Below are positions 13,810 through 58,760 of a stretch of 64,000 bases of DNA, in pieces. Below the pieces are notes generated by a model that was given only the letters and a program-made list of their open reading frames with translations, did no database searches and was not told the DNA's origin. How positions within the stretch are numbered: position 1 is the stretch's first letter; each line of letters starts with the position of its first letter. The position numbers and the translations under genes are program-made. The stretch comes from Calditrichota bacterium (GTDB taxonomy: Bacteria > Electryoneota > B3-LCP), in NCBI GenBank assembly GCA_020051775.1, contig JAGVQJ010000141.1, forward strand, positions 853 to 64,852, read 5' to 3'.

Positions 13810-14572
13810 ACTGACTCCGATTTGATTCATGTGTCGTTCTTGGCTTACTGTTTAAATGAGTATCAAGATGATCGGAAGTCAGTCTCCTTTTCGCTCAAGG
13901 TTTGAATTTTCGAGTTTTCTACAAAGGTCCAACCAATACCCTTCAGTTGATGGCCGGCGGCCAATGTTTGCCAGACTACGCTCCAGCGCCGACGGTGAAG
14001 ATCTGAAGTTCGAGGCGGCTCAGGTGGCCAAGGAAGACCGGGAAGCTTTATCAGTAGATGCCAATAACCCGGTCGGTAGCTGAATCAGAAGCAATCATAT
14101 CCATGTAATTGTAATCACATACTCAATTTAATTGGTTCATTCCGTTAAAGAAAGTATTGTTTTCATTATTTTCTGTGGTCGCTTTTCATATTAATGATAA
14201 TAATAAGGTTAACTATACTAACATTATCACATGTAATACTATAAGAAATATCCGCCATAATTACCTTTGATATAAATTTCGCTTTCATGTGCTGAAGATC
14301 ACACTGGTAAATTTGGCGCAGAAGTATTTTGGGAATTGCTGAGATTTTCTTTTTCATTTCCGACTTTCCACCTTCCAGATTTCGCGGCGCGCATGAGTTG
14401 TTTTTAAAAATTAATTTCAAATTATAATCATATATTAATTGTGAACAATATAATATAACGGACAGTTTATTACAAATGGATTTATTGATAAAAATACCCC
14501 TCCCCCAAGGGTATCTTCACTATAGGTCTACAAGGGGCAATTTTTGCTGCTTTAGGGGTTGGAGATCGCTTT

Positions 14573-38947: not shown

Positions 38948-41035
38948 TTGGAGACCCAGGCGCAGTACATCCCCGGAGTGGGGCCGCGCCGCGCCCGCGA
39001 ACTGGAGAAGGTCGGCGTCTTCACTCTGGAAGGTCTGCTTTACTACCTGCCTCGGCGTTATCTGGATCGTTCGTTGGTCGTGCCCATCGCCGACCTCGAA
39101 CTGACCGAACGCGAAGTAACAGTGGTGGGGAAGGTGACCAGTTTCCAGGTCATCGGTGGAGGACCCAACAGCCGCCGGTTCGAATTGAATGTTTCCGATG
39201 GGACCGGCGTCTTGTGCGCGGTCTGGTTCGGCGGTGTGCCCTTCTGGAGCAAGGCGTTTGAGCGCGGACAGACGGTGGCTTTCAGCGGCAAAGTTCGCTT
39301 GTTTCGAGACAGGGTGCAGATGACGCACCCGGCCGTGGATTTCCTGACGGAGGACGAACGCCGCGATCTTAAAGGCAAAACCGGCCGCATCATCTCGCTG
39401 TATTCTTCCGGCGATCCTTTAACGCGTGTAGGCTTGGATAGCGCCGGGTTCCGCCGGCTGATCGCTGATTCCATCCTGCTGGCCAAGGGGAAGATTCCGG
39501 AAACACTCCCTCCGGAATTGATCCGTAAACACGACCTCGTCAGGCGCGAACAAGCGCTGTTCCAGGTGCATTTCCCGGAAGACTTCGATCAAGTCGCCAA
39601 GGCGCTGCGGCGGTTGAAGTTCGAGGAGATCTTTCTCCTACAACTCTCTCTGGCGCTGCGCGAACATCGGCGCAAGACCCGCGACAAGGGAATCGCCTTT
39701 CCTCACCCCGGGACGTTGACACGGCAGGCTTTAAAGCAGTTCCCCTTCGAACTGACTAAGGGGCAGCTTCAGGTCTTGACCGATATTCGGCAGGATATGG
39801 AAGCCGAATATCCCATGAACCGGTTACTGCAAGGGGACGTGGGTGCAGGCAAAACCGCCGTAGTGATGATCGCTCTGGCGATAGCCGTGGAAGGCGGCTA
39901 CCAGGGCGCCGTCATGGCGCCGACGGAAGTCCTGGCGGAGCAGCACTTCCGCACCATGGAGACGTTCTTTGACAAGTTAGGCATACGCACGACACTCCTG
40001 TTGGGAGGGTTGACGGCCGCCGTGCGCCGTTCCCGCCTGGAGGAGATTGCTTCCGGGAAAGCTCAGGTGGTCATCGGCACACATGCCTTGATCCAGGAGG
40101 GCGTTGAATTCCACAAGCTGGGTTTGGTGGTCATTGACGAGCAGCACCGTTTTGGAGTAGCGCAGAGGCTGGGATTGCGCCGCAAGGGCAAAACTCCCGA
40201 CGTGCTGGTGCTGACCGCCACGCCCATCCCCCGATCGCTGGCGCTGACCATGTACGGCGATCTGGACGTTTCACTGTTAAAAGAACGACCGCACAACCGC
40301 AAACCGATCCAGACCAAAATCTATGGCGGTAAAAGGCGCGAGGAGCTCTTTGAAAAAATCCGACTGGAAATGAGCAAGGGGCGGCAGGCGTTCATCGTCT
40401 ACCCGTTGGTGGAAGAATCGGAGAAATTGGACTTGCAGGCGGCGGTGAAAGCTCACGGCGAACTGAGTGCCGGGCCGTTTAAGAATTTCAAGTTGGGATT
40501 GCTGCACGGGCGCATGACCACCGAAGAAAAAGACCGGGTGATGAAGGCCTTCATCGCGCACGAGTATGATCTGCTGGTATCCACGACGGTCATCGAACTG
40601 GGTATTGACGTGCCCAACGCCACGGTGATGGCGGTCATGGGAGCGCAACGCTTCGGGCTGTCAGCGCTGCACCAACTGCGGGGCCGAGTGGGGCGCGGCG
40701 AACATCGCGGCGTCTGCGTCCTGGTGGTGGACCCGCCCATGACCAATGAAGCTCGCGACCGCCTGTCCGTGCTGGAACGCACCGAAGACGGCTTCATCAT
40801 CGCGGATGAGGATCTGCGCATTCGCGGCGGCGGGGAATTCTTCGGCACGCGGCAGTCCGGCGCGCCGGACTTCAAGATCGCCGATCCGGTGGAAGACCGC
40901 GAACTCTTAGAGGTCGCCCGATTCGAGGCCTTTGCCTGGGTCGCCCACGACCCGGATCTAAAAGCCTATCTGCCTCTGCAAGCCTTCTTCGAGCGAGCCT
41001 ATGGGCCGAAGATGGAGCTGATGGACGTGGGGTGA
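38948..41035 (+). CDS. recG: ATP-dependent DNA helicase RecG
   Basis: It has a wedge/OB N-terminus (LPRRYLDRS), helicase motifs (GDVGAGKTAV, VVIDEQHRFGV, LTATPIPRSL, LHGRM, QLRGRVGRG) and a RecG C-terminus. There is no in-frame ATG downstream of the preceding gene's stop. The start is provisionally the TTG at 38948; the ORF-track start at 38759 would overlap the previous gene by 128 nt. Confidence 0.85.
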   Translation: METQAQYIPGVGPRRARELEKVGVFTLEGLLYYLPRRYLDRSLVVPIADLELTEREVTVVGKVTSFQVIGGGPNSRRFELNVSDGTGVLCAVWFGGVPFWSKAFERGQTVAFSGKVRLFRDRVQMTHPAVDFLTEDERRDLKGKTGRIISLYSSGDPLTRVGLDSAGFRRLIADSILLAKGKIPETLPPELIRKHDLVRREQALFQVHFPEDFDQVAKALRRLKFEEIFLLQLSLALREHRRKTRDKGIAFPHPGTLTRQALKQFPFELTKGQLQVLTDIRQDMEAEYPMNRLLQGDVGAGKTAVVMIALAIAVEGGYQGAVMAPTEVLAEQHFRTMETFFDKLGIRTTLLLGGLTAAVRRSRLEEIASGKAQVVIGTHALIQEGVEFHKLGLVVIDEQHRFGVAQRLGLRRKGKTPDVLVLTATPIPRSLALTMYGDLDVSLLKERPHNRKPIQTKIYGGKRREELFEKIRLEMSKGRQAFIVYPLVEESEKLDLQAAVKAHGELSAGPFKNFKLGLLHGRMTTEEKDRVMKAFIAHEYDLLVSTTVIELGIDVPNATVMAVMGAQRFGLSALHQLRGRVGRGEHRGVCVLVVDPPMTNEARDRLSVLERTEDGFIIADEDLRIRGGGEFFGTRQSGAPDFKIADPVEDRELLEVARFEAFAWVAHDPDLKAYLPLQAFFERAYGPKMELMDVG

Positions 41036-41041
41036 AAGAAG

Positions 41042-41069
41042 TTATGAATTATGAGTTATGAGTTATGAA
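41042..41069. repeat. Left copy of a perfect 28-bp terminal inverted repeat (TTATGAATTATGAGTTATGAGTTATGAA)
   Basis: It is exactly the reverse complement of 42953-42980. It consists of four tandem heptamers, TTATGAA/TTATGAG, and starts 6 bp after the recG stop. Confidence 0.9.
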
Positions 41070-41346
41070 AACAATTGTCATCGCTGCACTATTCGGCACG
41101 TAGGGGTCGGGTTTGCCCCGAACCATTGATCCCCCCCTTCCCCCCTTGACAAGGGGGGTGACTGCAGGGTGAGGAAATCGTTGGATTACGCTTCGCTAAT
41201 CCAACCTACTTTACTGAATCACGCAGATTTCACTGATTACGCTGATTATTTACTCTTGTCTGAATCACAGATTCACGCAGATTAAGCAGATTGCGCGGAT
41301 TTTCATCTCCGAAGGGGATGAAAATCGAGCGCTACCGGCACGGATT

Positions 41347-42450
41347 GTGGGACAATTGAATTCAATCAATAGAATGAAGGAGAAGAAGATGCCAACTCCG
41401 CAAGAAAAGCAAATTCTAATCAATATTCAGAAAGATCTCGAGACTCTCGCATTGTATGACGATGGAAAAATGACTCGAAAGGATTTGGCACCTGAGTTAG
41501 AATTTTCATATGTTTCAATTTATATCCAACGATCCTTGGCAATATACAGAAAATTAAAAGATGCACCTCTTGAGTGCTTAGTTGAACAATCATTAAAGCA
41601 AGTTCAACAAAGAGTAGCTCAAGCGGCTGGTAGATATAAGGAGCTAGCAGAGTTTTCAATCGCTAAATATCCCGACAATGTAATGCAAAAGAGAAATAAC
41701 ATAATTCAAGCAATTGTGTCTGAATATTTTGAAGACATAAAGATTCTGCAACCTATAATTGATCTTCTTGTACCAATTGATTCCGAAATAATCAAAATCA
41801 CTAAGGAACAAAAAAAATCTTTGAAATCAATTGAAACAGAGAGATTAAATATTAAGAGTAAATCAGAAGAATTACAGAAAGAAATTGAATTGACTCTGAG
41901 TAACCTACAAAAGGAGAGTAACGAAGCATTGATGGCGGTACGCAGTATTGCTGGTGAGGCTGGAGTTTCTCACCATGCACAAATTTTTGCTCAACAAGCG
42001 AATCAGCATAAAAAGTACGCAAATATTTGGTTGAGTATTTCAGTGGCGGTACTTGTCCTTGCCGTATTTGCAATATCTTGGATTACGAAAACATACATAG
42101 AGGAAATAAAAGATCTAGATGAAATAATTAAGGTACTTCCAATCACAATATCTAGATTAGTCATGGTGACGATTTCTCTATATGCAGTATTGTGGAGCAC
42201 AAAGAATTATAATGCGCATCGACACAATGAAGTGATTAATCGCCATAGGCAAAATGCCTTAAGTACGTTTAAATCATTCGTAGAGGCGGCGAAAGATGAC
42301 CCAGCAACAAAGAATACAATTTTAATACAAGCTACTCAGTGTATTTTTTCTGTGCAAAGGTGTGGTTATTTAAAAGGCGATAGTGATTCAATGATGCCAA
42401 ATAATCTAATTAATATTCCATTGCCTGCATCTCCAAAATTAAAAGACTAA
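41347..42450 (+). CDS. Hypothetical protein: long coiled-coil N-terminal region followed by a two-TM helical hairpin and a short C-terminal domain (SLATT-like architecture)
   Basis: The ORF is AT-rich. Residues 1 to about 215 are K/E/Q-rich helical. The TM helices are IWLSISVAVLVLAVFAISWI and LVMVTISLYAVLWSTKNY. The C-terminus NAHRHNEVINRHRQNALSTFKSFVEAAKDD matches no known family that I recognise. Confidence 0.6.
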   Translation: MGQLNSINRMKEKKMPTPQEKQILINIQKDLETLALYDDGKMTRKDLAPELEFSYVSIYIQRSLAIYRKLKDAPLECLVEQSLKQVQQRVAQAAGRYKELAEFSIAKYPDNVMQKRNNIIQAIVSEYFEDIKILQPIIDLLVPIDSEIIKITKEQKKSLKSIETERLNIKSKSEELQKEIELTLSNLQKESNEALMAVRSIAGEAGVSHHAQIFAQQANQHKKYANIWLSISVAVLVLAVFAISWITKTYIEEIKDLDEIIKVLPITISRLVMVTISLYAVLWSTKNYNAHRHNEVINRHRQNALSTFKSFVEAAKDDPATKNTILIQATQCIFSVQRCGYLKGDSDSMMPNNLINIPLPASPKLKD

Positions 42451-42511
42451 ATACTGTGATTTTTCTTGTCTTTCAATCCGTCTCCGCGGTCGTGCAGGTT
42501 GGCGGGGATCT

Positions 42512-42986: not shown

Positions 42987-43751
42987 ATGTCTCGCATCAT
43001 CGCCATAGCCAACCAAAAGGGCGGGGTGGGCAAAACCACCACGGCCGTCAACCTGGCCTGCTTTTTAGCCGCCGCCGAGAAGAAGACTCTGCTGGTGGAT
43101 ATTGACCCGCAGGCCAACGCCACTTCCGGCATGGGTTTAGGCTCGGAGAAACGCGGCAAGACCATCTATGAGGTGCTGATCCAGGAGATGGACCCGCGTG
43201 AAGCCGTCCAGGACACCGATCTGGAATTCCTGAAGATCCTGCCGTCCGACGTCAAGTTGGTGGGCGCGGAGATCGAACTGGTGCCCATGATGAGCCGCGA
43301 GCAGATCTTGCGGCGCGCTCTGACGCCCCTGAAAGCGGAATACGATTACCTGATCATGGACTGCCCGCCGTCTTTGGGGCTGTTGACTCTGAACGCTCTG
43401 ACCTCCGCCGATTCCGTGTTGATCCCCATCCAGTGCGAATACTACGCGCTGGAAGGCATCACCCAGCTTCTGGGCACAGTGCGACTCGTGCAGAAGCATT
43501 TAAACAACGCCCTGGAGATTGAGGGCGTCCTGCTAACCATGTACGACAACCGTCTGAAACTATCCAAACAGGTGCGGACGGATGTGCAGGAATTTTTCCG
43601 CGAAAAAGTCTTTCGCAGCGTCATCACCCGCAACGTCAAACTTTCGGAGGCGCCGTCCTTCGGTCAACCCATCATCTTTTACGATATTGCCTCGCGCGGG
43701 GCGCAAAATTATCTTTCTTTGGCGCAGGAGATCATCAACAATGAACGGTAA
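42987..43751 (+). CDS. parA: Chromosome partitioning ATPase ParA/Soj
   Basis: It has the deviant Walker [22 protein letters not shown] and ParA motifs ([17 protein letters not shown]). Confidence 0.9.
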
Positions 43752-44646
43752 GGAAACCGGAAAAGAGAGCAAAGAGCTTCGCAAAGAGAGCCGCCTGGGA
43801 CGGGGTCTGGCAGCTCTACTACCCGAAGGGGCCGATTTGGGCGGACGTTCGCCCAAATACGCCGAAATCGAGGTGGATCTGGTGCATGCCAATCCGCAGC
43901 AGCCTCGAACCACGTTTGACGAGGAGGCCTTAAAAGACCTGTCCGATTCCATCCGCGCCAAGGGGGTGGTACAGCCCATCATCGTGCGGCGCGTAAACGG
44001 GGAGTACGAGCTGATCGCGGGAGAACGACGGCTGCGGGCTTCGCGCATGGCCGGATTAACCCGCATCCCCGCTTACATCGCCGACGTGGCCGACGGATCG
44101 GAGGCTCTGGAACTGGCCTTGATCGAAAACCTGCAACGTGAAGATCTGAACGCGCTGGAAATGGCTGAAGGCTTTCTGAAACTGGCACAGAACTACGGCT
44201 TGACGCAGGAGGAGATTTCCCACCGTGTGGGCAAGAGCCGCGCGGCTGTGGCCAACACCCTGCGCCTGCTGAACCTGGCTCCGCAGGTGCAGGAATCATT
44301 GCGCTCCGGACAGATTACCGCCGGGCATGCGCGAGCCATTTTGTCTTTCGATGACCGCGATCGCCAGACCACGCTTTGGAAACGTATCCTGAAGGACGGA
44401 CTGTCGGTGCGCAAGGCTGAGAGCCTGGCCCGGAAGATGACCGAACCCACGGCCAAGACGCACCACGTTCGCAAACGATCACCGCACGTCAGCCATGTAG
44501 AAGACCGCTTGCGCAACCTGCTGGGTACTCACGTGCGTCTGCACCACAAGCCCGGCAAGGGCGGCAGCATCGAAATCGAGTACTACACCGACGAGGATTT
44601 GGAGCGGATCTTAGAGCTGTTCGAGCTCATGGAGGGGAGCGGGTGA
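43741..44646 (+). CDS. parB: Chromosome partitioning protein ParB/Spo0J
   Basis: It has the ParB box [12 protein letters not shown] and an HTH ([22 protein letters not shown]). The start is the ATG at 43741, an 11-nt overlap with parA; the ORF-track 5' extension is rejected. Confidence 0.9.
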
Positions 44647-47784: not shown

Positions 47785-47888
47785 GGGGTGGCATGCTTCT
47801 GGCCCCATGGGGGACGAAGCATGTTACTCATACGCTATTTAAGCATGCTTCGTCCAACAAAACCTGTCGGCCTGAAGCATGCCACCCC
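47785..47888. repeat. Nested palindromic element, about 104 nt, in the FKBP-aldolase intergenic region
   Basis: The outer 15-bp arms are GGGGTGGCATGCTTC (47785-47799) and GAAGCATGCCACCCC (47874-47888). The inner 12-bp arms are GGACGAAGCATG (47812-47823) and CATGCTTCGTCC (47844-47855). All share a GAAGCATGC core. Confidence 0.7.
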
Positions 47889-47929
47889 AATATCTTTGCT
47901 TAGTGCCGAAAGTGGAGAGCGATAATCCT

Positions 47930-48718
47930 ATGCCTTCTGATGCTGATTTGACCACTGACTTGTTGGACGTCTGCCATCGTCTTTATACTGCGGGTATGGT
48001 GGCGGCTAATGACGGAAACGTATCGGCTCGCACCGACTCCGGCAACCTGCTGACTTCGGTGACCAACGTCTCGAAAGGGGCCATGACCGCCAAGGACGTG
48101 GTGAAAGTCACCAGCGATGGGGCCTGCATGGAAGAGGGCAAAAAAGCCTCATCCGAACTGCCCATGCACCTGGCCATCTACCGCGACCGGCCCGACGTGC
48201 GCGCCGTCGTGCACGCTCACCCGCCCTACGCCACCGGATTTGCCGCCGCCGGTCTGGCCTTGGATCAGTGTGTGCTGCCGGAAATAGTCATGACCCTGGG
48301 CAGCGTGCCTCTGGCCGACTACGGAACACCTTCCACCCAGGAGGTTCCTGAGGCAGTGGCGCGCTGGATCGGCAAGGCTGACGCTCTGCTGCTGTCCAAC
48401 CACGGAGCGGTTACGGTGGGGTCTACGCTCATGGAGGCGTTCTATCGCATGGAACGCATCGAGCATTACGCCAAGATCTGTTTTATTGCCCAGCAGTTGG
48501 GAGGCGCCCGGCTGCTGACGCCGCAAGAAGTGAACAAACTTTACCAGTTGCGGGAAAAGGCCGGGATTCCCAATCGCAATCCCGGCTGCTGGTCCTGCGA
48601 TCAGTTGCTGGCGGGGTCCTGCCTGGGTGAATCCTGCGTGTACTTCCCACCCGGAGAATCGTTCGAGCAGGCGGTGCAGAGAATGGTGAAGGAAGCGGTA
48701 AAAAAGATAGAGGACTGA
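47930..48718 (+). CDS. Class II aldolase/adducin-family protein (L-fuculose-phosphate aldolase-like) with Cys-rich C-terminal extension
   Basis: Sequence HRLYTAGMVAANDGNVSAR...VHAHPPYATGFAA...SNHGAVTVGSTLMEAFYRMERIE. The C-terminus reads NPGCWSCDQLLAGSCLGESC. The ATG at 47930 is preferred because of SD GGAGAG, and the upstream ATG lies inside the palindrome. Confidence 0.75.
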   Translation: MPSDADLTTDLLDVCHRLYTAGMVAANDGNVSARTDSGNLLTSVTNVSKGAMTAKDVVKVTSDGACMEEGKKASSELPMHLAIYRDRPDVRAVVHAHPPYATGFAAAGLALDQCVLPEIVMTLGSVPLADYGTPSTQEVPEAVARWIGKADALLLSNHGAVTVGSTLMEAFYRMERIEHYAKICFIAQQLGGARLLTPQEVNKLYQLREKAGIPNRNPGCWSCDQLLAGSCLGESCVYFPPGESFEQAVQRMVKEAVKKIED

Positions 48719-48719
48719 G

Positions 48720-51443
48720 ATGAACGAAATCCTTCGATTCCCACAAGAAATCCAGAAAGAAATCGAAGATCAGATTTCCGTTGAGTCATGGAAGAATAAA
48801 CCTGTCAAGCCGCTTGAATCTCCGGTCATGGCACTGCCACATACTGCAATCTACAAAATGCACCGGTATTATGCCCGCAGACCCTATAATGTATTTGATG
48901 AAATTATTCAACGATACACAAATCCTGGCGATTTAATTCTTGATCCTTTCTGTGGAGGCGGAGTAACCGTTGTGGAGGCCATGAAACTCCGGCGGCGGGT
49001 TATTGGCGTTGACTTGAATCCTCTGGCCACATGGATTACTCAAGTTGAAGTTGAGTCGGTAGATCTGAACGAATTGGACCAAGCTTTTACAATCTGGTTG
49101 GAGGCCGTACAAAAACAAATCAATCCGCTCTTCGAGGCAACCTGCGGCGCTTGTGGAAAGATAGGATCGGCGGAGTGGTTTGAGTGGTCAAATGTTGTCC
49201 GCTGCCCAAGTTGCGGGAAATCCAATATCTTAGGCAAATGCCAAAAGATTAGAGGAGGCCATTACCTCTGTACCAATAAGCGTTGCCAATCACTGATTGA
49301 AGCAGACAAGTGTGAACGACAACCGGATGAAATGCTCACCGCGTTGGTGAACTGCCCGCATTGCGGCGAAAGAAATATCCGCGATATTAATGCTGATGAC
49401 GCGGATCGAGTTAAACAGATTAAATCAAATTTTAATAGAATCGTAAAACAAGAAAAATTGAGTATCCCCGACGACGACTTCCCTGATATGAATTCGGTGC
49501 GGGAAAACAATCTCTTTGGCAAAGGCTTTCTGAAATTTAGAGATTACTTCACAACGAGGCATCTTCTCGCCATAGCAAGAATGAAATCATCCCTGCGTGA
49601 GTTGAAATCCGATAAGAGAACCATCAATTCTCTATATAATATATTTTCTGCGACTCTAAGATTTACAAACAAAATGGTCATTAGGAGCGAAGCGTGGCGT
49701 GGTGATAATCCACTCGAATGGCCAGGGCACATTTATTGGCCTCCTTATACATATCTCGAAGCAAACCCGGTTAAACCGCTTCTAAAACGGTATAAAGCTC
49801 AAGTTGCCGGTAAATTGGAGCAAAAGGAGAAAATAGGGGATTTCTGCCGATTCCCCAAGATTTATCGGCCCTGGGAGGATATGCAGAGCAGCGCCACCTG
49901 CTGGATCATCAACCAGTCCAGTCATGATTTACCCATACCTGATAAATCGGTGGATGCTGTGATTACCGATCCACCCTTTGGCGGCAATGTCCAATATGCC
50001 GAATTATCAGATTTTTACCTGGTGTGGCTAAAGGACTTTTTGAAGTTGCCCGATGGCGCCGGCAAAGAACAGGAGGCTATAGAAACTCGCCATCAAGGTT
50101 TTGATGGCGCGAAGGATCGTGATTTTTACGAGAATATGCTCTTTAAAATTTTCAAGGAATGCCGACGAGTAATCAAACCTGACGGCTGGATGGCGCTAAC
50201 TTTCCACAATCGTGATATCGGTGTTTGGATGTCCATGAATCGCGCAGCGATTAGGGCCGGTTTCAGGTTACCACCTGCATCAGAGTCTCTAAATCGCGGG
50301 ATGATTTACCAGCCTCCCATCCAAAATTACACCCAGACAATTCATCAAAAGCGCACTGGCTCTATGCTCGGTGATTTTGTCCTATCATTCCGACCGGTAG
50401 ATGAACCGGTGTACCTGGGACCGGTTCTGCAAGAATTACCCACGGAAGAGGAAAAAGGCATATATGCTAAAGCAGATGAGATCATCCGGTTTCATGGCGG
50501 CGCCGATGAAACGACCCTGATGACCGGGTTGCTACCCTATTTACAAGAAAAAGGGTTGCTGGCGCGATTAGCCAGATTCGATCTGCGTTCTCTGTTGAGT
50601 GGCGGACAATTTGTATTCCGCAAAGACCAGAAGAAGTGGTATGCGGCTGACATGATCGAACCATCTGGCGGCATTAAACCCATTGACGTTATTCAGGCTG
50701 AACATCTCGTGCAGGAGCTGATCTTTGAGTACCTTTTGGAACACAAACATGCCAGTAATGATGATCTATTACGGTTGGTTTATACCGCACTGGTTAATGC
50801 TCATAGACCGCAGATTGATGCTATTGAGAAGGTTCTGGGCAAGTACTGCAAGAGAATCAATGTGAAAGGTCAGAAAAGAGAACAATATCAATGGACAACA
50901 GGGGTGCCATCCCCTTTGAAAGTACAACAAGAAAAACAAAAACAGACAGACTTGATGATGGGCGAGAGTGTCTCTCCGACACACAATGGCATTATTTTTA
51001 CCATCGCACAAGAAGCGATTACAAAAGGATATTTCGCGCATGTCGGCGCGACGGAACAACGAAAAAACGGATCTCTGGATCACGTCAGTCTCAAACTCAC
51101 TTATCATGAATTGGGAGTGCCTAAAAAGGCGTTTGATATCATTCGTCAAATTGACTTGCTGTTACTGAAGGAATATTCAGTAATTGCAGCCATTGAAGTT
51201 GTAACCAGCCTCAGTACGCTTAACAAGGCGGTTAATGACCGTTTCAGGAATCTACTTAGCGTAATTCCTAACTTAAATTTCAGGTTGTACATCGTCGTCA
51301 ACGATGAAGATTTCATGGCGGCACGCGCAGAAATACATTCACCGGTAAATCAACGTGAAGGTTTGGCAGACCGCATAAGACTCCTCAAGGTGTCTGAAGT
51401 AACCGAGGGAAAAATCACAACGTATTGGCCTTTCCAAGAGTAG
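48720..51443 (+). CDS. DUF1156/COG1743-family adenine-specific DNA methyltransferase with Zn-ribbon; solitary
   Basis: The N-terminal motif HRYYARRP matches the HxWWARRP signature. Motif I is DPFCGGGVTVVEA...VIGVDLNP. The Zn-ribbons are CGACGK...CPSCGK and CTNKRC...CPHCGE. Catalytic motif IV is ITDPPFGGNVQY. The protein is 907 aa. The gene is AT-richer than its flanks. Its ATG follows the upstream TGA by 1 nt. Confidence 0.8.
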   Translation: MNEILRFPQEIQKEIEDQISVESWKNKPVKPLESPVMALPHTAIYKMHRYYARRPYNVFDEIIQRYTNPGDLILDPFCGGGVTVVEAMKLRRRVIGVDLNPLATWITQVEVESVDLNELDQAFTIWLEAVQKQINPLFEATCGACGKIGSAEWFEWSNVVRCPSCGKSNILGKCQKIRGGHYLCTNKRCQSLIEADKCERQPDEMLTALVNCPHCGERNIRDINADDADRVKQIKSNFNRIVKQEKLSIPDDDFPDMNSVRENNLFGKGFLKFRDYFTTRHLLAIARMKSSLRELKSDKRTINSLYNIFSATLRFTNKMVIRSEAWRGDNPLEWPGHIYWPPYTYLEANPVKPLLKRYKAQVAGKLEQKEKIGDFCRFPKIYRPWEDMQSSATCWIINQSSHDLPIPDKSVDAVITDPPFGGNVQYAELSDFYLVWLKDFLKLPDGAGKEQEAIETRHQGFDGAKDRDFYENMLFKIFKECRRVIKPDGWMALTFHNRDIGVWMSMNRAAIRAGFRLPPASESLNRGMIYQPPIQNYTQTIHQKRTGSMLGDFVLSFRPVDEPVYLGPVLQELPTEEEKGIYAKADEIIRFHGGADETTLMTGLLPYLQEKGLLARLARFDLRSLLSGGQFVFRKDQKKWYAADMIEPSGGIKPIDVIQAEHLVQELIFEYLLEHKHASNDDLLRLVYTALVNAHRPQIDAIEKVLGKYCKRINVKGQKREQYQWTTGVPSPLKVQQEKQKQTDLMMGESVSPTHNGIIFTIAQEAITKGYFAHVGATEQRKNGSLDHVSLKLTYHELGVPKKAFDIIRQIDLLLLKEYSVIAAIEVVTSLSTLNKAVNDRFRNLLSVIPNLNFRLYIVVNDEDFMAARAEIHSPVNQREGLADRIRLLKVSEVTEGKITTYWPFQE

Positions 51444-51452
51444 TACATTCCC

Positions 51453-51851
51453 ATGACCTGGCGCAGAGTCTTTTTCGACAATTACAAAGCCAAGCTGGCG
51501 CTTTTTCTGATGGCCGCCTTCATGTGGTTTTTTGTGGTTTCCAGCCGAGATTATGTGGAAACTGTGAAAATCCCCGTGCGGGTCATCAACTTGCCCCAGA
51601 ACCGCGTGCTGCTGCAGCCCTTACCCACTCAAGCCCAGGTACGTTTCCGGGGTAAAGGCACCAGCTTGTTGCTCCTGGGGCTTTTCGGCGATCCGCACCT
51701 GGATGTAGACCTTTCACATCCCAACTATGTGTACTATTTCCGCCCGGGACTCGATCAGGTGGATTGGAGCCCGGCCATTGAAGTGCAGCCCTTGGACATT
51801 CTGTTGCCGGATACGATTTTTGTGCAGATGGAAGAACGACACAAGCCATAG
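51453..51851 (+). CDS. YbbR-like (CdaR-like) domain protein, short single-domain form
   Basis: It has an N-terminal TM helix (KLALFLMAAFMWFFVV) and then one YbbR-like beta-rich repeat. The call is weak. Confidence 0.45.
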   Translation: MTWRRVFFDNYKAKLALFLMAAFMWFFVVSSRDYVETVKIPVRVINLPQNRVLLQPLPTQAQVRFRGKGTSLLLLGLFGDPHLDVDLSHPNYVYYFRPGLDQVDWSPAIEVQPLDILLPDTIFVQMEERHKP

Positions 51852-51865
51852 GATACCAAACTCTT

Positions 51866-52876
51866 TTGATCGTTTTAAGCATAGAGACTTCGTGTGATGA
51901 AACCGCCGCCGCCATCCTGGATGAGGGCGCGGTGCTCTCTTCGGTCGTCGCCACTCACTGGATGCACGCCCGTTTCGGCGGCGTGGTCCCGGAGCTGGCT
52001 TCACGCGCGCACTTGAACCTGCTGTTGCCCATTCTTGATCAAGTGATGGCAGACTCAGCCGTAGCCTTGGAGAATGTCGAGGCCGTGGCCGTAACCCGAG
52101 GACCGGGCTTAATTGGATCACTGCTGGTGGGCATTTCGCTGGCCAAGAGCGTGGCGTTCGCCCGTAATATTCCGTTGATCGGGGTGAACCATTTGGAAGG
52201 CCACATGTGGAGCGCCGGTTTCGACAACCCGGACTTGGAGCCGCCATTCCTGGCTCTACTGGTCTCAGGAGGCCACACTCTGCTGGTGGGCGTCGAGGGT
52301 TTCGGCGATTACCGCCTGATCGGGCAGACTCGCGACGATGCCGCCGGCGAAGCATTTGATAAAGTGGCGGTGCTGTGCGGGTTGGGGTATCCGGGAGGCG
52401 CGGCTGTGGAGAAGCTGTCCGCCGAGGGCAACCGCGAATTCCACTCCTTTCCCGTGGGCATGAGCGGCCAACAAGGGTACGATTTCTCATTCTCCGGATT
52501 GAAGACCGCCGTCGCTAATTTCATGCGCCGTAATCCCACCGTGGTCAGCGATCATCTGTCCGACATATTGGCCGGTTTTCAAGAAGCTGCGGTAAATTCC
52601 CTCCTGGAACCAACACTGCGGGCCTTTGACGCCTTCGGATACCGCACTTTAACGCTTTCCGGGGGCGTGGCGGCCAACGGACGGCTTCGGCAACAGTTGA
52701 CACAGGCGGTTGAAGCTCGCGGCGGGAAATTCCTATTTCCTGGATTCGCTCTATGCACCGACAACGCCGCCATGACCGGTTGGGTGGGCTGGCGTCGTTT
52801 GGCCTTGGGTCAGCGCGACGACTTCGACTTGAGCGGCGAGGCTAATCTACCGCTGCCGGGATTGAGACATGTTTAA
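51866..52876 (+). CDS. tsaD: tRNA N6-adenosine threonylcarbamoyltransferase TsaD
   Basis: TsaD/Kae1-family motifs (LSIETSCDETAAAI, LIGVNHLEGH, SGGVAANGRLR). It has a TTG start. Confidence 0.9.
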   Translation: MIVLSIETSCDETAAAILDEGAVLSSVVATHWMHARFGGVVPELASRAHLNLLLPILDQVMADSAVALENVEAVAVTRGPGLIGSLLVGISLAKSVAFARNIPLIGVNHLEGHMWSAGFDNPDLEPPFLALLVSGGHTLLVGVEGFGDYRLIGQTRDDAAGEAFDKVAVLCGLGYPGGAAVEKLSAEGNREFHSFPVGMSGQQGYDFSFSGLKTAVANFMRRNPTVVSDHLSDILAGFQEAAVNSLLEPTLRAFDAFGYRTLTLSGGVAANGRLRQQLTQAVEARGGKFLFPGFALCTDNAAMTGWVGWRRLALGQRDDFDLSGEANLPLPGLRHV

Positions 52877-56519: not shown

Positions 56520-58760
56520 ATGCATCGGCATTGCCTTTTATCCTTGCTCACGGCCTTGGTGGCATGGTCCGTTGTCCACGCCGAAACCATTATCCCCGGT
56601 GGAAACGTGACCGGAACATGGACTGCGGATGGATCGCCGTTTATCATCACGGCTGATATAACGGTCCAGAACAATGATTCCCTTCTGATCGGGCCGGGAG
56701 TGCGCGTGCAGTTCGATTCCAACGTAACTCTGGGTGTCTTAGGACGACTAATTGCGGACGGATCAGTGCAACCCGGAGTGGGTGATACTATTTTCTTCAC
56801 TAGCAATGGCACCCCCAATTGGGGGGGAATTTTCACGCAAAATGCCGATGATACAATACGATTTACTTTCTGCGTATTGGAATACGGCGAAGGGTTCAGT
56901 TTCAGCAGCCACAATGATCCCTTGGTCATGCATGACTGCCGTTTATCCATGCCTTTTATTGGGGAAGGTGACTGCAGCATGTGGCTGAAGCGCTGTTTGG
57001 TCACAGGCGACCTTTATGCTCTCTCTTGGAGTGCCCATGTAAGCCCGTGCTATATCATGAACTGTACAATACTGGGAAATGTCAATTTCCCGGATTTTGC
57101 TTATAACACGCATATAGATTCAAGCTTGATCACCGGGAATTTCGGTTCAACCTACCTGGGCAATCTTTGGATCGAAGAGACGACGATTCAGGGAAATCTG
57201 CAAGCGACTCATAATGATGATATGCATCTATATGTGACGAATAGTGCTATTTATGGCGATATGCCCAGCGTTGGCAACCTCGAAATGGATCATTCCATCG
57301 TTTACGGGTCTGTGGTTGCTTATGGTATCCCCACAGACGTTACCAATCTCTATATCAGCAACAATAGCATAATTCATGGCCCCATTTGCTTAGGCACACA
57401 ATTGACGGTGAGCATCACCAATAGCGCTTTGTTGGGTCATATTAATTTGGATGATCTAAACAGGGAATGCACCTTCTGGCAAAATGTCATTTGTGATTCA
57501 GTCTGGGGTCAACCGAGTCCCGGGTTAGGTTATTTCCCCATCAATTTCACTGAGAATAAATTTTGGGGAGGCAGCATAAATTTAGCCGGCTATTTCTTCT
57601 ACGATTCACATTTTTCAGCCACTAATAATTGGATAATCAACAGCGAGGTCAATGGGATACAACTTACTGATTTAAGTGGTTTCGGTTCGGGTTCGATCGT
57701 CATTGGAAATAATACCATCAATAATTGCGCCGGGCATGGGATTTCGATTATTGACGCAAATCCATTTGCAACGGCTCAGGTTATGCTCGCCAATAATATC
57801 GTCACCTCCAACGGCGGTTACGGAATCAGTGTCTCACCAATGATTCCGACGCAGGCCACTTACAACGACATCTGGGACAACGAGTTGGGAAATTACTCCG
57901 GTGTGATTCCTGGCGAAGGAGCTCTCAGCGTAGATCCCACTTTCGTGGACACAATATGGAGCGATTGCCGCCTTGATTGGGGTTCGCCGTGTATTGACTC
58001 TGGTGATCCGGGGCATGTGCTGGATCCCGACAGTACGCAATCGGATCGGGGCGCGTTCTTTTTCGATCAGAGTCATCCTGTGCGAGTGTTGCTCACCGGG
58101 CACAGTCAGCCGATCCTGATTCTCGAAGGCGGCGGCAGTTTCGATTATACCATTCGATTGACCAACATCACTTCCAATATCCAGCAACATCAATTTTGGG
58201 TGGAAGGACTACTGCCGGACAGCGGAAATGCCAGAACGCTAATCGCACCGATCTGGTTGGCTGTGCCTCCGAATACAACTTTAAGCGCAATCCGTACCCA
58301 GAGCCTCGCAGCCGAGGGTCCGGCGGGTCTGTACCGAGCTATCGGCCGCATGTCAACTACAACGGATACTTCAGAAGACAGTTTCCCGGTGATCAAGCTG
58401 GGGTCAATCGGTGATCGGGCTCTACAGGCGGTAAATTGGTGGGATTTTGGTGACGTTTTCAACCCAGAAAATTCCCTTTCATTAGATACTCAAAATACCC
58501 CCATCATGCTATACCCGTCTCACCCCAATCCTTTCAACGCTTCTACCGTCATAAGATACCAGATACCAGGGGCCGGCCAGGTCAGTTTGAAAGTCTACGA
58601 TACTGCCGGAAGGCCGGTGGCTACGTTGGTGGAAGGCTGGCGGGACGCGGGAGTGCACGCGGTGACGTTTGAGGGATCAAAGTTGGCGTCGGGGGTGTAT
58701 TTTCTCAGGATGCAGACAAGTGATTATAAGGCCGTGCAGAAGATGATGTTGCTAAAATAG
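56520..58760 (+). CDS. Secreted beta-helix repeat protein with T9SS-type C-terminal sorting domain
   Basis: It has a signal peptide (LLTALVAWSVVHA) and many N/G/T-rich beta-helix turns (NNTINNCAGHGISII). The tail is NPFNASTVIRYQIPGAGQVSLKVYDTAGRPVATL...GVYFLRMQT...KMMLLK. Confidence 0.75.
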   Translation: MHRHCLLSLLTALVAWSVVHAETIIPGGNVTGTWTADGSPFIITADITVQNNDSLLIGPGVRVQFDSNVTLGVLGRLIADGSVQPGVGDTIFFTSNGTPNWGGIFTQNADDTIRFTFCVLEYGEGFSFSSHNDPLVMHDCRLSMPFIGEGDCSMWLKRCLVTGDLYALSWSAHVSPCYIMNCTILGNVNFPDFAYNTHIDSSLITGNFGSTYLGNLWIEETTIQGNLQATHNDDMHLYVTNSAIYGDMPSVGNLEMDHSIVYGSVVAYGIPTDVTNLYISNNSIIHGPICLGTQLTVSITNSALLGHINLDDLNRECTFWQNVICDSVWGQPSPGLGYFPINFTENKFWGGSINLAGYFFYDSHFSATNNWIINSEVNGIQLTDLSGFGSGSIVIGNNTINNCAGHGISIIDANPFATAQVMLANNIVTSNGGYGISVSPMIPTQATYNDIWDNELGNYSGVIPGEGALSVDPTFVDTIWSDCRLDWGSPCIDSGDPGHVLDPDSTQSDRGAFFFDQSHPVRVLLTGHSQPILILEGGGSFDYTIRLTNITSNIQQHQFWVEGLLPDSGNARTLIAPIWLAVPPNTTLSAIRTQSLAAEGPAGLYRAIGRMSTTTDTSEDSFPVIKLGSIGDRALQAVNWWDFGDVFNPENSLSLDTQNTPIMLYPSHPNPFNASTVIRYQIPGAGQVSLKVYDTAGRPVATLVEGWRDAGVHAVTFEGSKLASGVYFLRMQTSDYKAVQKMMLLK

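What the first reader, a model, noticed from the sequence alone, without database searches (positions are those of the whole stretch)
48720..51443. Solitary DUF1156/COG1743 Zn-ribbon adenine methyltransferase embedded between housekeeping genes
The protein has the HRYYARRP signature, the split beta-class motifs (DPFCGGG ... DPPF about 340 aa later), two CxxC-pair Zn-ribbons and a roughly 450-aa C-terminal region. This family is usually encoded in multi-gene defence operons with a DUF499 ATPase and a helicase or nuclease. Here no partner gene is present: upstream is an aldolase, with ATG 1 nt after its TGA, and downstream are ybbR-like and tsaD. The gene is AT-shifted. It is either an orphan methyltransferase kept for epigenetic regulation or anti-restriction, a remnant of a decayed defence island, or a single-chain system whose C-terminal half carries the effector function.
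Basis: partly seen in the sequence, partly recalled or inferred. Interest (0 to 1): 0.55.

Follow-up and report, generated by a model that had tools for sequence, protein, structure and literature searches.

The report
Single-chain methylase–nuclease restriction enzyme candidate
This lone gene encodes one large protein that joins a DNA-marking enzyme to a DNA-cutting-type domain, so it looks like a whole restriction-modification system in one chain with an unusual layout, but a change at one probable catalytic residue leaves open whether it still cuts DNA.

Summary
The 907-aa ORF, its motifs, its neighbours and its low GC are all real. The DUF1156 label fails: there is no PF06634 hit, and NF042963 scores 60 bits against a cut-off of 1000. 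The N-terminal 560 aa are a BrxXI/PglXI-type N6-adenine methyltransferase with a Zn-finger TRD insert (PADLOC PglXI, 9e-47). After two winged-helix-like units, the last ~160 aa are homologous to the C-terminal domain of NmeDI-type Type II restriction endonucleases (hhalign 99.1%). In Helicobacter bilis and a Patescibacteria genome the same two modules are adjacent genes in an M1–R–M2 cluster. The window protein aligns collinearly to M1 and then to R, so it is an M·R fusion with no M2. That explains why it has no partner genes. Close relatives have it or lack it in the same aldolase|ybbR slot, which in one relative holds a toxin–antitoxin-like pair instead. One caveat remains. A glutamate conserved in 97% of the nuclease family is valine here (A/V/T in 103 of 119 fusions), while the other signature residues are invariant. 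A sister clade keeps the glutamate and always has an uncharacterised P-loop NTPase downstream. Best reading: a self-contained Type IIC/IIS-like R-M enzyme (about 0.5). Main rival: an orphan methylase with a dead nuclease domain.

The parts
48720..51443 (+). Whole gene: 907-aa M·R fusion protein (methyltransferase, TRD, winged helices, nuclease-type domain)
   Evidence: ORF. 742 homologues, most of the best 120 full-length at 840-940 aa. AF2 model pLDDT 87, pTM 0.78.
48831..49064 (+). Methyltransferase core, N-terminal part (aa 38-115), with HRYYARRP (aa 48-55; 48861-48884) and the AdoMet motif DPFCGGG (aa 75-81; 48942-48962)
   Evidence: Pfam N6_N4_Mtase aa 39-101 matches profile positions 159-213. 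R49, A52, R53, R54, D75, F77, G79, G80 and G81 are invariant in 80 sequences.
49065..49901 (+). Insert target-recognition domain (aa ~116-394), with Zn cluster 1 (C142..C165; 49143-49214) and Zn cluster 2 (C184..C215; 49269-49364)
   Evidence: The PADLOC PglXI hit aa 91-515 spans the insert (8.7e-47). The cysteines are invariant or at least 96% conserved. This is the least conserved region, with mean pairwise identity 0.36, as expected for a specificity module. The layout matches the BrxXI description in PMC12839542.
49902..50399 (+). Methyltransferase core, C-terminal part (aa 395-560), with catalytic motif IV DPPF (aa 417-420; 49968-49979)
   Evidence: D417, P418 and P419 are invariant; position 420 is F or Y. 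This part aligns to the separate M1 of L086 up to that protein's C-terminus (29% identity, 5e-27).
50427..50945 (+). Two winged-helix-like units (aa ~575-645 and ~659-725) plus a connecting helix
   Evidence: Secondary structure of the AF2 model. Weak winged-helix Pfam hits in homologues (Stork_head, Cullin_Nedd8). Aligns with the N-terminal half of the separate R protein of L086.
50946..50969 (+). Low-confidence linker (aa 743-750) between the winged-helix region and the nuclease-type domain
   Evidence: pLDDT below 50 for residues 743-750 in the full-length model.
50973..51404 (+). NmeDI_C-type PD-(D/E)xK-like domain (aa 752-895). Signature residues: H755, E779, K782, D812 (51153-51155), E826 (51195-51197), V828 (51201-51203, where the wider family has E), D840-R841 (51237-51242), R843, N877
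   Evidence: Profile A2 retrieves only PF27126 proteins. hhalign 99.1%, E 1.4e-18 against standalone REase-type members. Those members hit PADLOC REase_II PDLC03534 over its C-terminal half. [quoted passage not shown] Motif table.
47879..48718 (+). Upstream flank: class II aldolase, left border of the variable slot
   Evidence: Pfam Aldolase_II 1.8e-47. Used as the anchor that showed the slot is polymorphic in relatives.
51453..51851 (+). Downstream flank: short (132-aa) YbbR-like gene, right border of the slot
   Evidence: tblastn to the YbbR genes of L001/L008 (46-52% identity, N-terminal 128 aa only). The same short form occurs in L092, L093 and L099.
51866..52876 (+). tsaD (housekeeping gene, not part of the element)
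   Evidence: TIGR03723 1.1e-115.

Best explanation
The gene encodes a self-contained, single-polypeptide restriction-modification enzyme. In REBASE terms it is Type IIC (combined) with Type IIS-like logic, and it arose by end-to-end fusion of the M1 methyltransferase and the R endonuclease of an M1-R-M2 system.

Shown here:
- Residues 1-560 are a BrxXI/PglXI-type DNA methyltransferase with an AdoMet motif, a DPPF motif IV and a Zn-finger TRD inserted in the Rossmann core.
- Residues 570-745 form two winged-helix-like units.
- After a flexible linker, residues 752-895 are homologous to the C-terminal domain of NmeDI-type Type II endonucleases.
- The gene is an accessory cassette in a variable slot and has no conserved partner in its clade.

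Inferred:
- The methyltransferase/TRD (helped by the winged helices) recognises a specific, probably asymmetric, DNA sequence and makes N6-methyladenine on host DNA. This could be on one strand only, because no M2 is present, as in MmeI-type enzymes.
- On unmodified incoming DNA the tethered C-terminal PD-(D/E)xK-type domain cuts at a distance from the site. It probably needs transient pairing of nuclease domains from two bound molecules, as proposed for FokI and for Type IIC enzymes.
- In this clade the usual D...E-x-E centre is changed (E828 to V, plus an inserted D840 next to the invariant R841). Cleavage would therefore rely on a rewired active site.
For: - Domain homology of the methyltransferase: PADLOC PglXI 8.7e-47 over aa 91-515, and Type II MTase models down to 8.8e-41. 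Pfam N6_N4_Mtase 1.4e-20.
- Domain homology of the tail: the C-terminal profile hits only PF27126 (NmeDI_C) proteins, several named 'type II restriction enzyme'. hhalign gives 99.1% using the window clade alone. Family members hit PADLOC REase_II over model positions ~160-350 of 351.
- Literature on NmeDI: it is a characterised Type II REase that cuts 12/7 on both sides of RCCGGY (PMC2095814). It is described as a symmetric Type IIS enzyme, a class built from a recognition domain plus a C-terminal cleavage domain (PMC4081073). Its family was assigned to the PD-(D/E)XK superfamily (PMC2441816).
- Effector-domain behaviour: the domain sits at the extreme C-terminus of about 2,255 cluster representatives, behind variable heads including EVE, Mrr_N, HEPN_Swt1 and a methyltransferase.
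- Rosetta stone: L083 (Helicobacter bilis) and L086 (Patescibacteria) have a PglXI-like M1, an NmeDI_C-type R and a small M2 as abutting co-directional genes. Window aa 241-558 align to M1 up to its C-terminus, and window aa 570-880 align to the whole R.
- Conservation: H755, E779, D812, E826 and R841 are invariant in all 118 methyltransferase fusions whose domain aligned (119 retrieved; one is gapped at D812, E826 and R841). The nuclease domain is more conserved than the TRD and the winged-helix region. The full length is kept across several phyla.
- Accessory-gene behaviour: presence/absence polymorphism at one slot, which in L093 holds a DUF2283/DUF4258 pair; low GC; no recurrent neighbour in 15 or more loci of the clade.
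- Precedents: solitary Type IIC enzymes exist (MmeI), and the M-then-R order is known from BtgZI (PMC4081073).
Against: - E828 is glutamate in 178 of 183 short family members, but V in the window protein and A/V/T in 103 of 119 fusions. In BamHI-like D...E-x-E sites the second glutamate is catalytically important (my own knowledge), so the nuclease may be dead.
- The sister clade that keeps E828 always has a P-loop NTPase immediately downstream. The window clade lacks both. This suggests a functional shift and possibly loss of restriction.
- Fold support from solved structures is weak. No Foldseek PDB hit reaches E<=1e-3; the best is BsaWI at probability 0.77 and TMq 0.49.
- PF27126 is not among the precomputed Pfam hits of the identical protein P0001, and the window tail does not hit the PADLOC REase model directly. 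The link is at profile level only.
- The pairwise alignment to the L086 R protein is weak on its own (21% identity, E 1e-3).
- The gene diverges at the same rate as its housekeeping flanks (65-69% against 47-75%), which is also compatible with a domesticated function.
- No methylation or cleavage data exist.
Confidence: 0.5

Rival explanations
1. An orphan N6-adenine methyltransferase descended from an M·R fusion. The nuclease-type domain is catalytically dead because the second glutamate is lost, and it is kept only for DNA binding, dimerisation or positioning. The protein then only methylates. It could serve epigenetic regulation, or it could protect the host genome against incoming R-M elements of the same specificity.
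For: - E828 is replaced by A/V/T throughout the window clade, against 97% E in the wider family.
- This coincides with loss of the NTPase partner seen in the E828-intact clade.
- The gene is syntenic and diverges like its housekeeping flanks within the LCP-89-like lineage.
- The ratio of nuclease-domain to methyltransferase-core conservation is somewhat lower than in the intact clade (0.70 against 0.83).
- Relatives that lack the nuclease domain exist (L031 and L032), so the methyltransferase module can stand alone.
Against: - A dead domain would be expected to lose its acidic residues or be truncated. Instead H755, E779, D812, E826, R841, R843 and N877 are invariant or nearly so across about 100 diverged members, and the full length is kept across phyla.
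- The insertion next to the invariant R841 is acidic (D or E) in 85 of the 101 fusions that carry it. That looks more like compensation than decay.
- The gene is not fixed in its lineage. Close relatives lack it (L092, L093, L096, L097, L099), unlike regulatory orphans such as Dam or CcrM.
- The conservation ratio is confounded by the different depths of the two clades.
Confidence: 0.35
2. A component of a multi-gene BREX-type-3 or DUF499/DUF1156 ('BR') defence system whose ATPase and helicase partners lie elsewhere in the genome, or a leftover of such an island.
For: - The methyltransferase module is homologous to PglXI and, more weakly, to the DUF1156 models.
- A Paenibacillus relative of the module sits in a multi-gene locus with a 919-aa DEAH-motif helicase and a 327-aa upstream protein (L090; those ORFs were read from the translations and not scanned against the libraries).
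- PMC12839542 describes the shared core of these methyltransferases.
Against: - PF06634 gives no hit, and NF042963 scores 60 bits against a cut-off of 1000.
- The PglXI model is matched only over positions 188-588 of 919, so the C-terminus is different.
- No DUF499, PglZ, BrxC or SNF2 gene is in the window or in any of 15 or more loci of the clade.
- Empty-site relatives show a clean single-gene difference with no remnants of an island.
Confidence: 0.07
3. Not a DNA enzyme at all, but an RNA or protein methyltransferase whose C-terminal domains serve another substrate.
For: Weak Pfam and Foldseek similarities to rRNA and tRNA methyltransferases (UPF0020, Trm11, Bud23, RsmF), and a location among translation-related genes such as tsaD.
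Against: - These are generic Rossmann-core matches.
- The best specific matches are DNA N6/N4 methyltransferases and PglXI.
- The D-P-P-[FY] motif is invariant.
- The protein carries winged helices and a restriction-endonuclease-type domain, and its modules occur in M1-R-M2 gene clusters.
- The tsaD linkage is not conserved outside close relatives.
Confidence: 0.03

Closest known systems
BtgZI (Type IIC/IIS; GCGATG 10/14), as described in Pingoud et al. 2014 (PMC4081073)
   Same: It is the only named enzyme in that review with the same gross order: an N-terminal alpha-class methyltransferase followed by a C-terminal variant PD-(D/E)XK cleavage domain in one chain, cutting away from its site.
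   Different: Homology could not be tested because no BtgZI sequence was available here. BtgZI's variant motif has Q in place of E. The window domain belongs to the NmeDI_C family (D...E-x-E) and has V at the second E. The window methyltransferase is of the BrxXI/PglXI type with a Zn-finger insert TRD.
NmeDI Type II restriction endonuclease family (Pfam PF27126 NmeDI_C; PADLOC REase_II PDLC03534)
   Same: The C-terminal ~150 aa are homologous at profile level. [quoted passage not shown]
   Different: There is no NmeDI N-terminal recognition domain; model positions 1-160 are never matched. The domain is fused to a methyltransferase. E828 is replaced. NmeDI works with a separate C5-cytosine methyltransferase on a palindromic site (PMC2095814).
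BREX type 3 methyltransferase BrxXI/PglXI and the DUF1156 'BR' methyltransferases (PMC12839542)
   Same: A Rossmann core with a large insert TRD carrying 4-Cys Zn binding, D-P-P-[FY] adenine-type chemistry, and HTH/winged-helix domains after the core. It is the best PADLOC hit (8.7e-47; description).
   Different: No BREX or BR partner genes. No DUF1156 N-terminal domain by HMM. The C-terminus ends in a nuclease-type domain and not a third HTH. That paper reports no homologues of the insert TRD outside BREX, whereas this family lies outside BREX.
Canonical Type IIG/IIC enzymes (MmeI, BpuSI, Eco57I)
   Same: One chain carries both methylation and cleavage modules. They can be solitary genes without a separate methyltransferase, as with MmeI. 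Cleavage is presumed to need transient dimerisation (PMC4081073; PMC3185434).
   Different: Those have the opposite order (an N-terminal PD-ExK nuclease, then a gamma-class NPPY methyltransferase, then a C-terminal TRD) and are unrelated in sequence.
Type IIS M1-R-M2 systems found here in Helicobacter bilis (L083) and Patescibacteria (L086)
   Same: The same methyltransferase clade (PglXI model 1e-36 to 2e-42) and the same winged-helix plus NmeDI_C endonuclease. The window protein aligns collinearly to M1 and then to R.
   Different: There the modules are separate genes, a second small methyltransferase (M2) is present, and the R protein keeps the full D...E-x-E motif (FEIENS).

Membership tests
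DUF1156 / anti-phage-associated DUF1156 methyltransferase (PF06634; NCBIfam NF042963; PADLOC DUF1156_MTase) | N-terminal DUF1156 domain detected by PF06634 | tested here: not met
   No hit at E<=0.01 on the full protein, at E<=10 on close and distant homologues, or at E<=10 on the N-terminal 130 aa.
DUF1156 / anti-phage-associated DUF1156 methyltransferase (PF06634; NCBIfam NF042963; PADLOC DUF1156_MTase) | Whole-protein score above the NF042963 cut-off (1000 bits) | tested here: not met
   60.3 bits, confined to aa 408-516. PADLOC DUF1156_MTase gives only 3.9e-10 on aa 398-509.
DUF1156 / anti-phage-associated DUF1156 methyltransferase (PF06634; NCBIfam NF042963; PADLOC DUF1156_MTase) | Operon with a DUF499 ATPase and an SNF2 helicase(-nuclease) | tested here: not met
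   No such genes in the window or in the clade's loci.
DUF1156 / anti-phage-associated DUF1156 methyltransferase (PF06634; NCBIfam NF042963; PADLOC DUF1156_MTase) | COG1743 assignment | not testable with these tools
   No COG library was available.
BREX type 3 BrxXI/PglXI methyltransferase | Match to the PglXI profile across the core and the insert TRD | tested here: met
   PDLC02541 at 8.7e-47; aa 91-515 match model positions 188-588 of 919. The match is partial: the model's N- and C-termini are not matched.
BREX type 3 BrxXI/PglXI methyltransferase | 4-Cys Zn finger in the insert TRD | tested here: met
   Two 4-Cys clusters, with the cysteines invariant or at least 96% conserved.
BREX type 3 BrxXI/PglXI methyltransferase | Three C-terminal HTH-like domains | tested here: inconclusive
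   The model shows two winged-helix-like units followed by a nuclease-type domain. No structural comparison with BrxXI was possible.
BREX type 3 BrxXI/PglXI methyltransferase | Locus with BrxC, PglZ and the BrxHII helicase | tested here: not met
   Absent from the window and from related loci.
Type IIC (combined R-M in one polypeptide) | Methyltransferase catalytic motifs (AdoMet motif and D/N-P-P-[YF]) in the chain | tested here: met
   DPFCGGG and DPPF are invariant in the family.
Type IIC (combined R-M in one polypeptide) | A restriction-endonuclease domain in the same chain | tested here: met
   Homology to NmeDI_C / REase_II members at profile level, and a collinear alignment to a separate R protein.
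Type IIC (combined R-M in one polypeptide) | Complete catalytic signature of that endonuclease family | tested here: not met
   H755, E779, D812, E826 and R841 are present, but the 97%-conserved E828 is V.
Type IIC (combined R-M in one polypeptide) | Demonstrated DNA cleavage and methylation by the one protein | not testable with these tools
   This needs biochemistry or methylome data.
Type IIC (combined R-M in one polypeptide) | [quoted passage not shown] | tested here: not met
   The order is methyltransferase then nuclease, and motif IV is DPPF. Only the atypical BtgZI-like layout fits.
NmeDI-type Type II REase (PF27126 NmeDI_C) | C-terminal domain homologous to NmeDI_C | tested here: met
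   All 41 hits of the A2 profile but one (a 112-aa fragment, P0133) carry PF27126. hhalign gives 99.1%.
NmeDI-type Type II REase (PF27126 NmeDI_C) | Direct PF27126 (or PADLOC REase_II) HMM hit on this protein | tested here: not met
   The precomputed Pfam list of the identical protein P0001 lacks PF27126. There is no PADLOC REase_II hit on the window tail at E<=1. PF27126 is not in the local Pfam copy.
NmeDI-type Type II REase (PF27126 NmeDI_C) | NmeDI N-terminal recognition domain | tested here: not met
   Only model positions ~160-350 of PDLC03534 are ever matched by relatives. The window N-terminus is a methyltransferase.
Lineage-fixed regulatory orphan methyltransferase (Dam/CcrM-like) | Presence in all close relatives at a conserved locus | tested here: not met
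   Five aldolase-anchored relatives lack the gene at the same site (L092, L093, L096, L097, L099).

The most novel reading that the evidence does not exclude
BrxXI-type methyltransferase fused to an NmeDI-type nuclease defines a previously undescribed family of single-chain R-M enzymes with two forms. One form is an NTP-dependent two-gene system, in which the fusion is always followed by an uncharacterised P-loop NTPase that has no Pfam domain. The other form is a streamlined, NTPase-independent derivative, and the window gene belongs to it. In this second form the catalytic centre has been rewired: the beta-strand glutamate E828 is lost and an acidic residue is inserted next to the invariant R841. 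If so, the window protein would be an active M-then-R Type IIS-like enzyme with an unconventional active site.
Probability: 0.3. Interest if true: 0.65.

Novelty: new variant of a known kind. Interest (0 to 1): 0.5.

Why it matters
It explains an apparently partnerless defence-type methyltransferase without assuming missing genes: the partner is fused into the same chain.

It links three things that are usually treated separately. These are the BREX-type-3/DUF1156 methyltransferase clade, the NmeDI-type cleavage domain, and Type IIS M1-R-M2 systems. One methyltransferase/TRD module appears to have been reused in four settings:
- multi-gene BREX-like systems;
- classical three-gene R-M systems;
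- M·R fusions with an NTPase;
- solitary M·R fusions.

A recent survey reported no homologues of the BrxXI insert TRD outside BREX (PMC12839542), and this family is one.

If the protein is active, the family has hundreds of members, mostly in uncultivated phyla. It would be a source of Type IIS-like cutters with new specificities, and a natural experiment in active-site migration in PD-(D/E)xK nucleases. If it is inactive, it is a clear case of how a fused R-M enzyme becomes an orphan methylase.

Tried and rejected
- A sequence-profile search of PDB with the C-terminal domain found nothing meaningful.
- Foldseek against PDB gave only weak nuclease-fold hits for the C-terminal domain and generic Rossmann hits for the full-length model.
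- Model coordinates are not exposed, so the distance from D840 to D812/E826 could not be measured.
- The window's own protein is not indexed for contig look-up, and its cluster record gives no organism.
- The contexts of two standalone NmeDI_C proteins (L009, L010) were uninformative.
- Promoter and terminator scans around the gene were at chance level.
- No full-length relative exists in the plasmid or phage collections.
- The 818-aa partner of the sister clade has no homologue in the window or in FCB-type loci and no informative annotation.
- L016's downstream methyltransferase looked like a possible M2, but it appears to belong to an independent neighbouring R-M-type cluster.
- The Haloferax HVO_A0006 paper concerns canonical Type IIG enzymes with an N-terminal nuclease and is unrelated.
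- The BtgZI literature in the library is application-only.
- The domain-wise conservation ratio did not separate an active from an inactive nuclease, because the two clades differ in depth.
- I considered a window-specific truncation of ybbR and rejected it: the short form is shared by relatives.
- I considered recent horizontal arrival as the cause of the low GC and judged it unlikely: the GC3 deficit persists in syntenic relatives at 65-69% identity.

Full report
**1. The observation**

The window has an ATG-initiated ORF at 48720-51443 (+) encoding 907 aa.
- MHRYYARRP at aa 47-55;
- DPFCGGG at aa 75-81;
- DPPF at aa 417-420;
- eight cysteines forming two clusters, C142/C145/C162/C165 and C184/C189/C212/C215.

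These residues are invariant or nearly invariant in an alignment of 80 full-length homologues.

The upstream gene (47879-48718) is a class II aldolase. Its TGA is followed after one base by the ATG. Downstream are a 132-aa YbbR-like ORF (51453-51851) and tsaD.

The gene has 45.2% GC and GC3 0.46. Its neighbours have 53-60% GC and GC3 0.66-0.71.

The rest of the 64 kb is housekeeping (RecG, DnaX, BipA, ParAB, peptidases, T9SS cargo) and holds no defence-type partner.

- The part beyond the methyltransferase is about 350 aa, not 450.
- One Cys pair is Cx4C.
- The motif order (AdoMet motif, then insert, then DPPF) is the alpha-class-like arrangement.

**2. The family label**

The DUF1156 label does not hold up:
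- Pfam PF06634 gives no hit on the protein, on its homologues, or on the isolated N-terminus even at E<=10.
- NCBIfam's DUF1156_antiphage model scores 60 bits against a cut-off of 1000.

The best specific matches are the PADLOC PglXI model (8.7e-47, aa 91-515, spanning the whole insert) and several REBASE-derived Type II methyltransferase models.

A 2026 survey (PMC12839542) describes the BREX type-3 methyltransferase BrxXI/PglXI and the DUF1156 'BR' methyltransferases as sharing one core:
- a Rossmann fold;
- an insert TRD of about 250 aa between strands 2 and 3;
- a 4-Cys Zn finger;
- HTH-like domains after the core.

The window protein has this core but not the DUF1156 N-terminal domain. 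Adenine specificity is inferred from the invariant D-P-P-[FY] motif and from that paper. It has not been shown.

**3. The C-terminal third**

No library model hits aa 560-907 directly. The region is nonetheless conserved, with invariant H755, G776, E779, D812, E826 and R841, and near-invariant K782, R843 and N877.

AlphaFold models are confident (full length pLDDT 87, pTM 0.78; aa 745-907 alone pLDDT 89, pTM 0.85). They show:
- two winged-helix-like units;
- a low-confidence linker at aa 743-750;

Evidence that this last domain is a restriction-endonuclease domain:
- A profile of it retrieved 41 proteins from 5.8 billion. All but one (a 112-aa fragment) carry the precomputed Pfam family PF27126, 'NmeDI_C', and several are called 'type II restriction enzyme' by their source.
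- A profile-profile comparison using only window-clade sequences against standalone members gave 99.1% probability (E 1.4e-18, 144 columns).
- Standalone members hit PADLOC's 351-position REase_II model PDLC03534 over positions ~160-350. R.NmeDI is 351 aa.
- R.NmeDI is a characterised enzyme that cuts 12/7 on both sides of RCCGGY (PMC2095814).
- It is described as a symmetric Type IIS enzyme, a class with an N-terminal recognition domain and a C-terminal cleavage domain (PMC4081073).
- Its family was placed in the PD-(D/E)XK superfamily with low reliability (PMC2441816).

Structure searches add only weak support. The best non-methyltransferase Foldseek hits are PD-(D/E)xK nucleases (BsaWI, MUS81/XPF/Hef, Card1), and none reaches E<=1e-3.

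An exhaustive HMM search found the domain in about 2,255 cluster representatives. In nearly all of the 150 listed hits it lies at the extreme C-terminus of 220-480-aa proteins with variable N-terminal heads. Sampled heads include EVE, Mrr_N, a PD-T4-1-like domain, HEPN_Swt1 and PglXI-type methyltransferases. That is how an effector nuclease module behaves.

**4. The Rosetta stone**

A search of 80 loci from reference genomes for the domain found NmeDI-sized ORFs in Helicobacter bilis (L083) and a Patescibacteria MAG (L086). In both, three abutting co-directional genes encode:
- a PglXI-type methyltransferase of 399-447 aa (PglXI model 1e-36 and 2e-42);
- an endonuclease of 329-333 aa with the NmeDI_C domain and an intact FEIENS motif;
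- a small N6_N4 methyltransferase of 280-289 aa.

Window aa 241-558 align with M1 right up to its C-terminus (29% identity, 5e-27). Window aa 570-880 align collinearly with residues 5-293 of the 329-aa R protein (21% identity, E 1e-3 pairwise). This second alignment is backed by the profile evidence above.

The window protein is therefore an end-to-end M1·R fusion. No M2-like gene is in the window or in the clade's loci.

**5. Genomic behaviour**

The nearest reference genome is a candidate division LCP-89 MAG (65% identity). In it and in a 69% relative the gene sits in the same place: ParA-ParB-FKBP-C69-FKBP-aldolase-[gene]-TrkA-TrkH-YbbR-TsaD. It diverges like its neighbours (65-69%, against aldolase 70-73%, TsaD 65-67%, C69 51%).

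Metagenome contigs anchored on the aldolase show that the slot is polymorphic:
- Carriers: L095 and L098.
- L092 and L099 have the aldolase 10 nt from the short ybbR.
- L096 and L097 go from the aldolase straight to TrkA.
- L093 has a low-GC DUF2283/DUF4258-like pair in the slot.

The gene is therefore an accessory cassette in a small variable slot.

The full architecture is spread patchily across phyla: LCP-89, Zixibacteria, Ignavibacteria, UBP2, Chloroflexota and Planctomycetota. It is absent from the plasmid and phage collections. The GC3 deficit recurs in syntenic relatives and is unexplained.

**6. Two clades**

Clustering the neighbours of 22 full-length loci found no recurrent partner for the window's clade. 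It found an invariable co-directional gene, 1-171 nt downstream (818 aa where complete), in the Planctomycetota-type clade. That protein has a Walker A motif (GAPGTGKT) and no Pfam family. Its 1,257 homologues are all 'hypothetical'. It has no homologue in the window.

The two clades also differ at the nuclease signature:
- In 183 short family members the pattern is H755, [D/E]779, D812, E826, E828 (97%), R841.
- The NTPase-linked fusions keep E828 followed by K or R.
- The window clade (103 of 119 fusions) has A, V or T at 828 (V in the window) and mostly T at 829. It also has a one-residue insertion next to the invariant R841, which is D in 81 fusions and D840 in the window.
- Every other signature residue stays invariant.

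Within the window clade the nuclease domain (mean pairwise identity 0.46) is better conserved than the TRD (0.36) and the winged-helix region (0.42). It is less conserved than the methyltransferase core (0.66).

**7. Interpretation**

Shown:
- the domain composition;
- the M1·R fusion origin;
- the accessory and solitary status;
- the clade-specific change in the signature.

Inferred:
- The protein methylates adenine at a TRD-defined site. This may be on one strand only, as in solitary Type IIC enzymes such as MmeI.
- The tethered domain cleaves unmodified DNA at a distance.

The replaced glutamate is the main uncertainty. On one side, in BamHI-type D...E-x-E sites the second glutamate matters, and its loss coincides with loss of the NTPase. 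On the other side:
- the remaining acidic and basic signature residues are strictly invariant over deep divergence;
- a mostly acidic residue has been inserted beside R841;
- PD-(D/E)xK enzymes are known to tolerate relocation or replacement of the third residue (for example BglII and BstYI, and Cfr10I's helix-borne glutamate). This last point is from my own knowledge and was not tested here.

I put an active single-chain R-M enzyme at about 0.5. I put an orphan methylase with a dead but retained nuclease domain at about 0.35. A BREX/BR component with remote partners gets about 0.07. A non-DNA methyltransferase gets about 0.03.

**8. Comparison and novelty**

Combined R-M enzymes are well known, but almost all have an N-terminal nuclease followed by a gamma-class methyltransferase. 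The only named exception in the 2014 review is BtgZI, which has an N-terminal alpha-class methyltransferase and a C-terminal variant PD-(D/E)XK domain.

The combination found here is a BrxXI/PglXI-type methyltransferase with a Zn-finger insert TRD, winged helices and an NmeDI-type domain. I found no description of it. The BREX survey states that the insert TRD has no homologues outside BREX.

I rate it a new variant of a known kind, of moderate interest. It also exposes a large uncharacterised family, a possible active-site rewiring, and an unstudied NTPase-linked sister system.

Noticed in passing
window 41000-42500 (ORF 41347-42450, +): A second, stronger low-GC island (34.8% GC, GC3 0.29) between RecG and ParA. 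It encodes a 367-aa protein with no family hit above threshold (weak DUF6161, 1.7e-4). It is probably another accessory insertion.
   Followed up: partly
window 51453-51851: The YbbR-like gene is only 132 aa, corresponding to the N-terminal ~128 aa of the 307-312-aa YbbR of relatives. The same short form occurs in L092, L093 and L099, and all of these lack TrkA/TrkH between the aldolase and ybbR. It is a lineage variant, not a truncation specific to this window.
   Followed up: partly
L093 6805-7382: The same aldolase|ybbR slot holds a low-GC (46% against 60%) cassette with a DUF2283 ORF (31.8 bits, above the cut-off) and a frameshifted DUF4258-like ORF. This is a toxin-antitoxin-like pair, so the slot is a small hotspot for accessory cargo.
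   Followed up: yes
L007 10725-13181; L026 8704-11160; L029 8692-11148; also L025, L027 and L057: An uncharacterised P-loop NTPase (818-aa form, with a ~564-aa form elsewhere; Walker A GAPGTGKT; no Pfam domain; 1,257 homologues, all 'hypothetical'). It always lies directly downstream of the E828-intact methyltransferase-nuclease fusions. This is a candidate two-gene defence system.
   Followed up: partly
L083 6001-9250 (Helicobacter bilis); L086 6189-9217 (Patescibacteria): M1-R-M2 clusters: a PglXI-type methyltransferase, an NmeDI_C-type endonuclease (FEIENS motif intact) and a small N6_N4 methyltransferase. They look like uncharacterised Type IIS-like R-M systems.
   Followed up: yes
L016 8866-12438: In 'Candidatus Hatepunaea meridiana' the fusion gene is followed by an SPPY-motif (N4-cytosine-type) methyltransferase, a 265-aa protein that may be a restriction endonuclease, and a P-loop ATPase. 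These were read from the translations only. They look like a separate R-M or defence cluster, so the fusion gene sits in a defence island there.
   Followed up: partly
L090 4812-12479 (Paenibacillus sp.): A 1,115-aa 'SKWWARRR' methyltransferase flanked by a 327-aa protein, a 174-aa ORF and a 919-aa helicase carrying a DEAH motif. It looks like a BREX-related multi-gene locus (not scanned against the family libraries).
   Followed up: partly
window 48720-51443 compared with L008 5729-8455, L001 414-3152 and L005 8001-10733: The fusion gene keeps a GC3 deficit of about 0.10-0.25 relative to its flanks in several genomes, although it diverges at the same rate as the flanking housekeeping genes. 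The cause is unknown.
   Followed up: partly
window 11980-13830 (-), 29994-31823, 32521-34200, 34244-36655, 56520-58760: Several proteins carry T9SS C-terminal sorting domains (beta-helix proteins and a subtilase). This is consistent with an FCB-group host. The last of them also has lower GC (49%).
   Followed up: no
window 42987-43751 and 43582-44646: Two + strand ORFs overlap by about 170 nt between ParA and ParB. The listed start of the second ORF is probably too far upstream.
   Followed up: no
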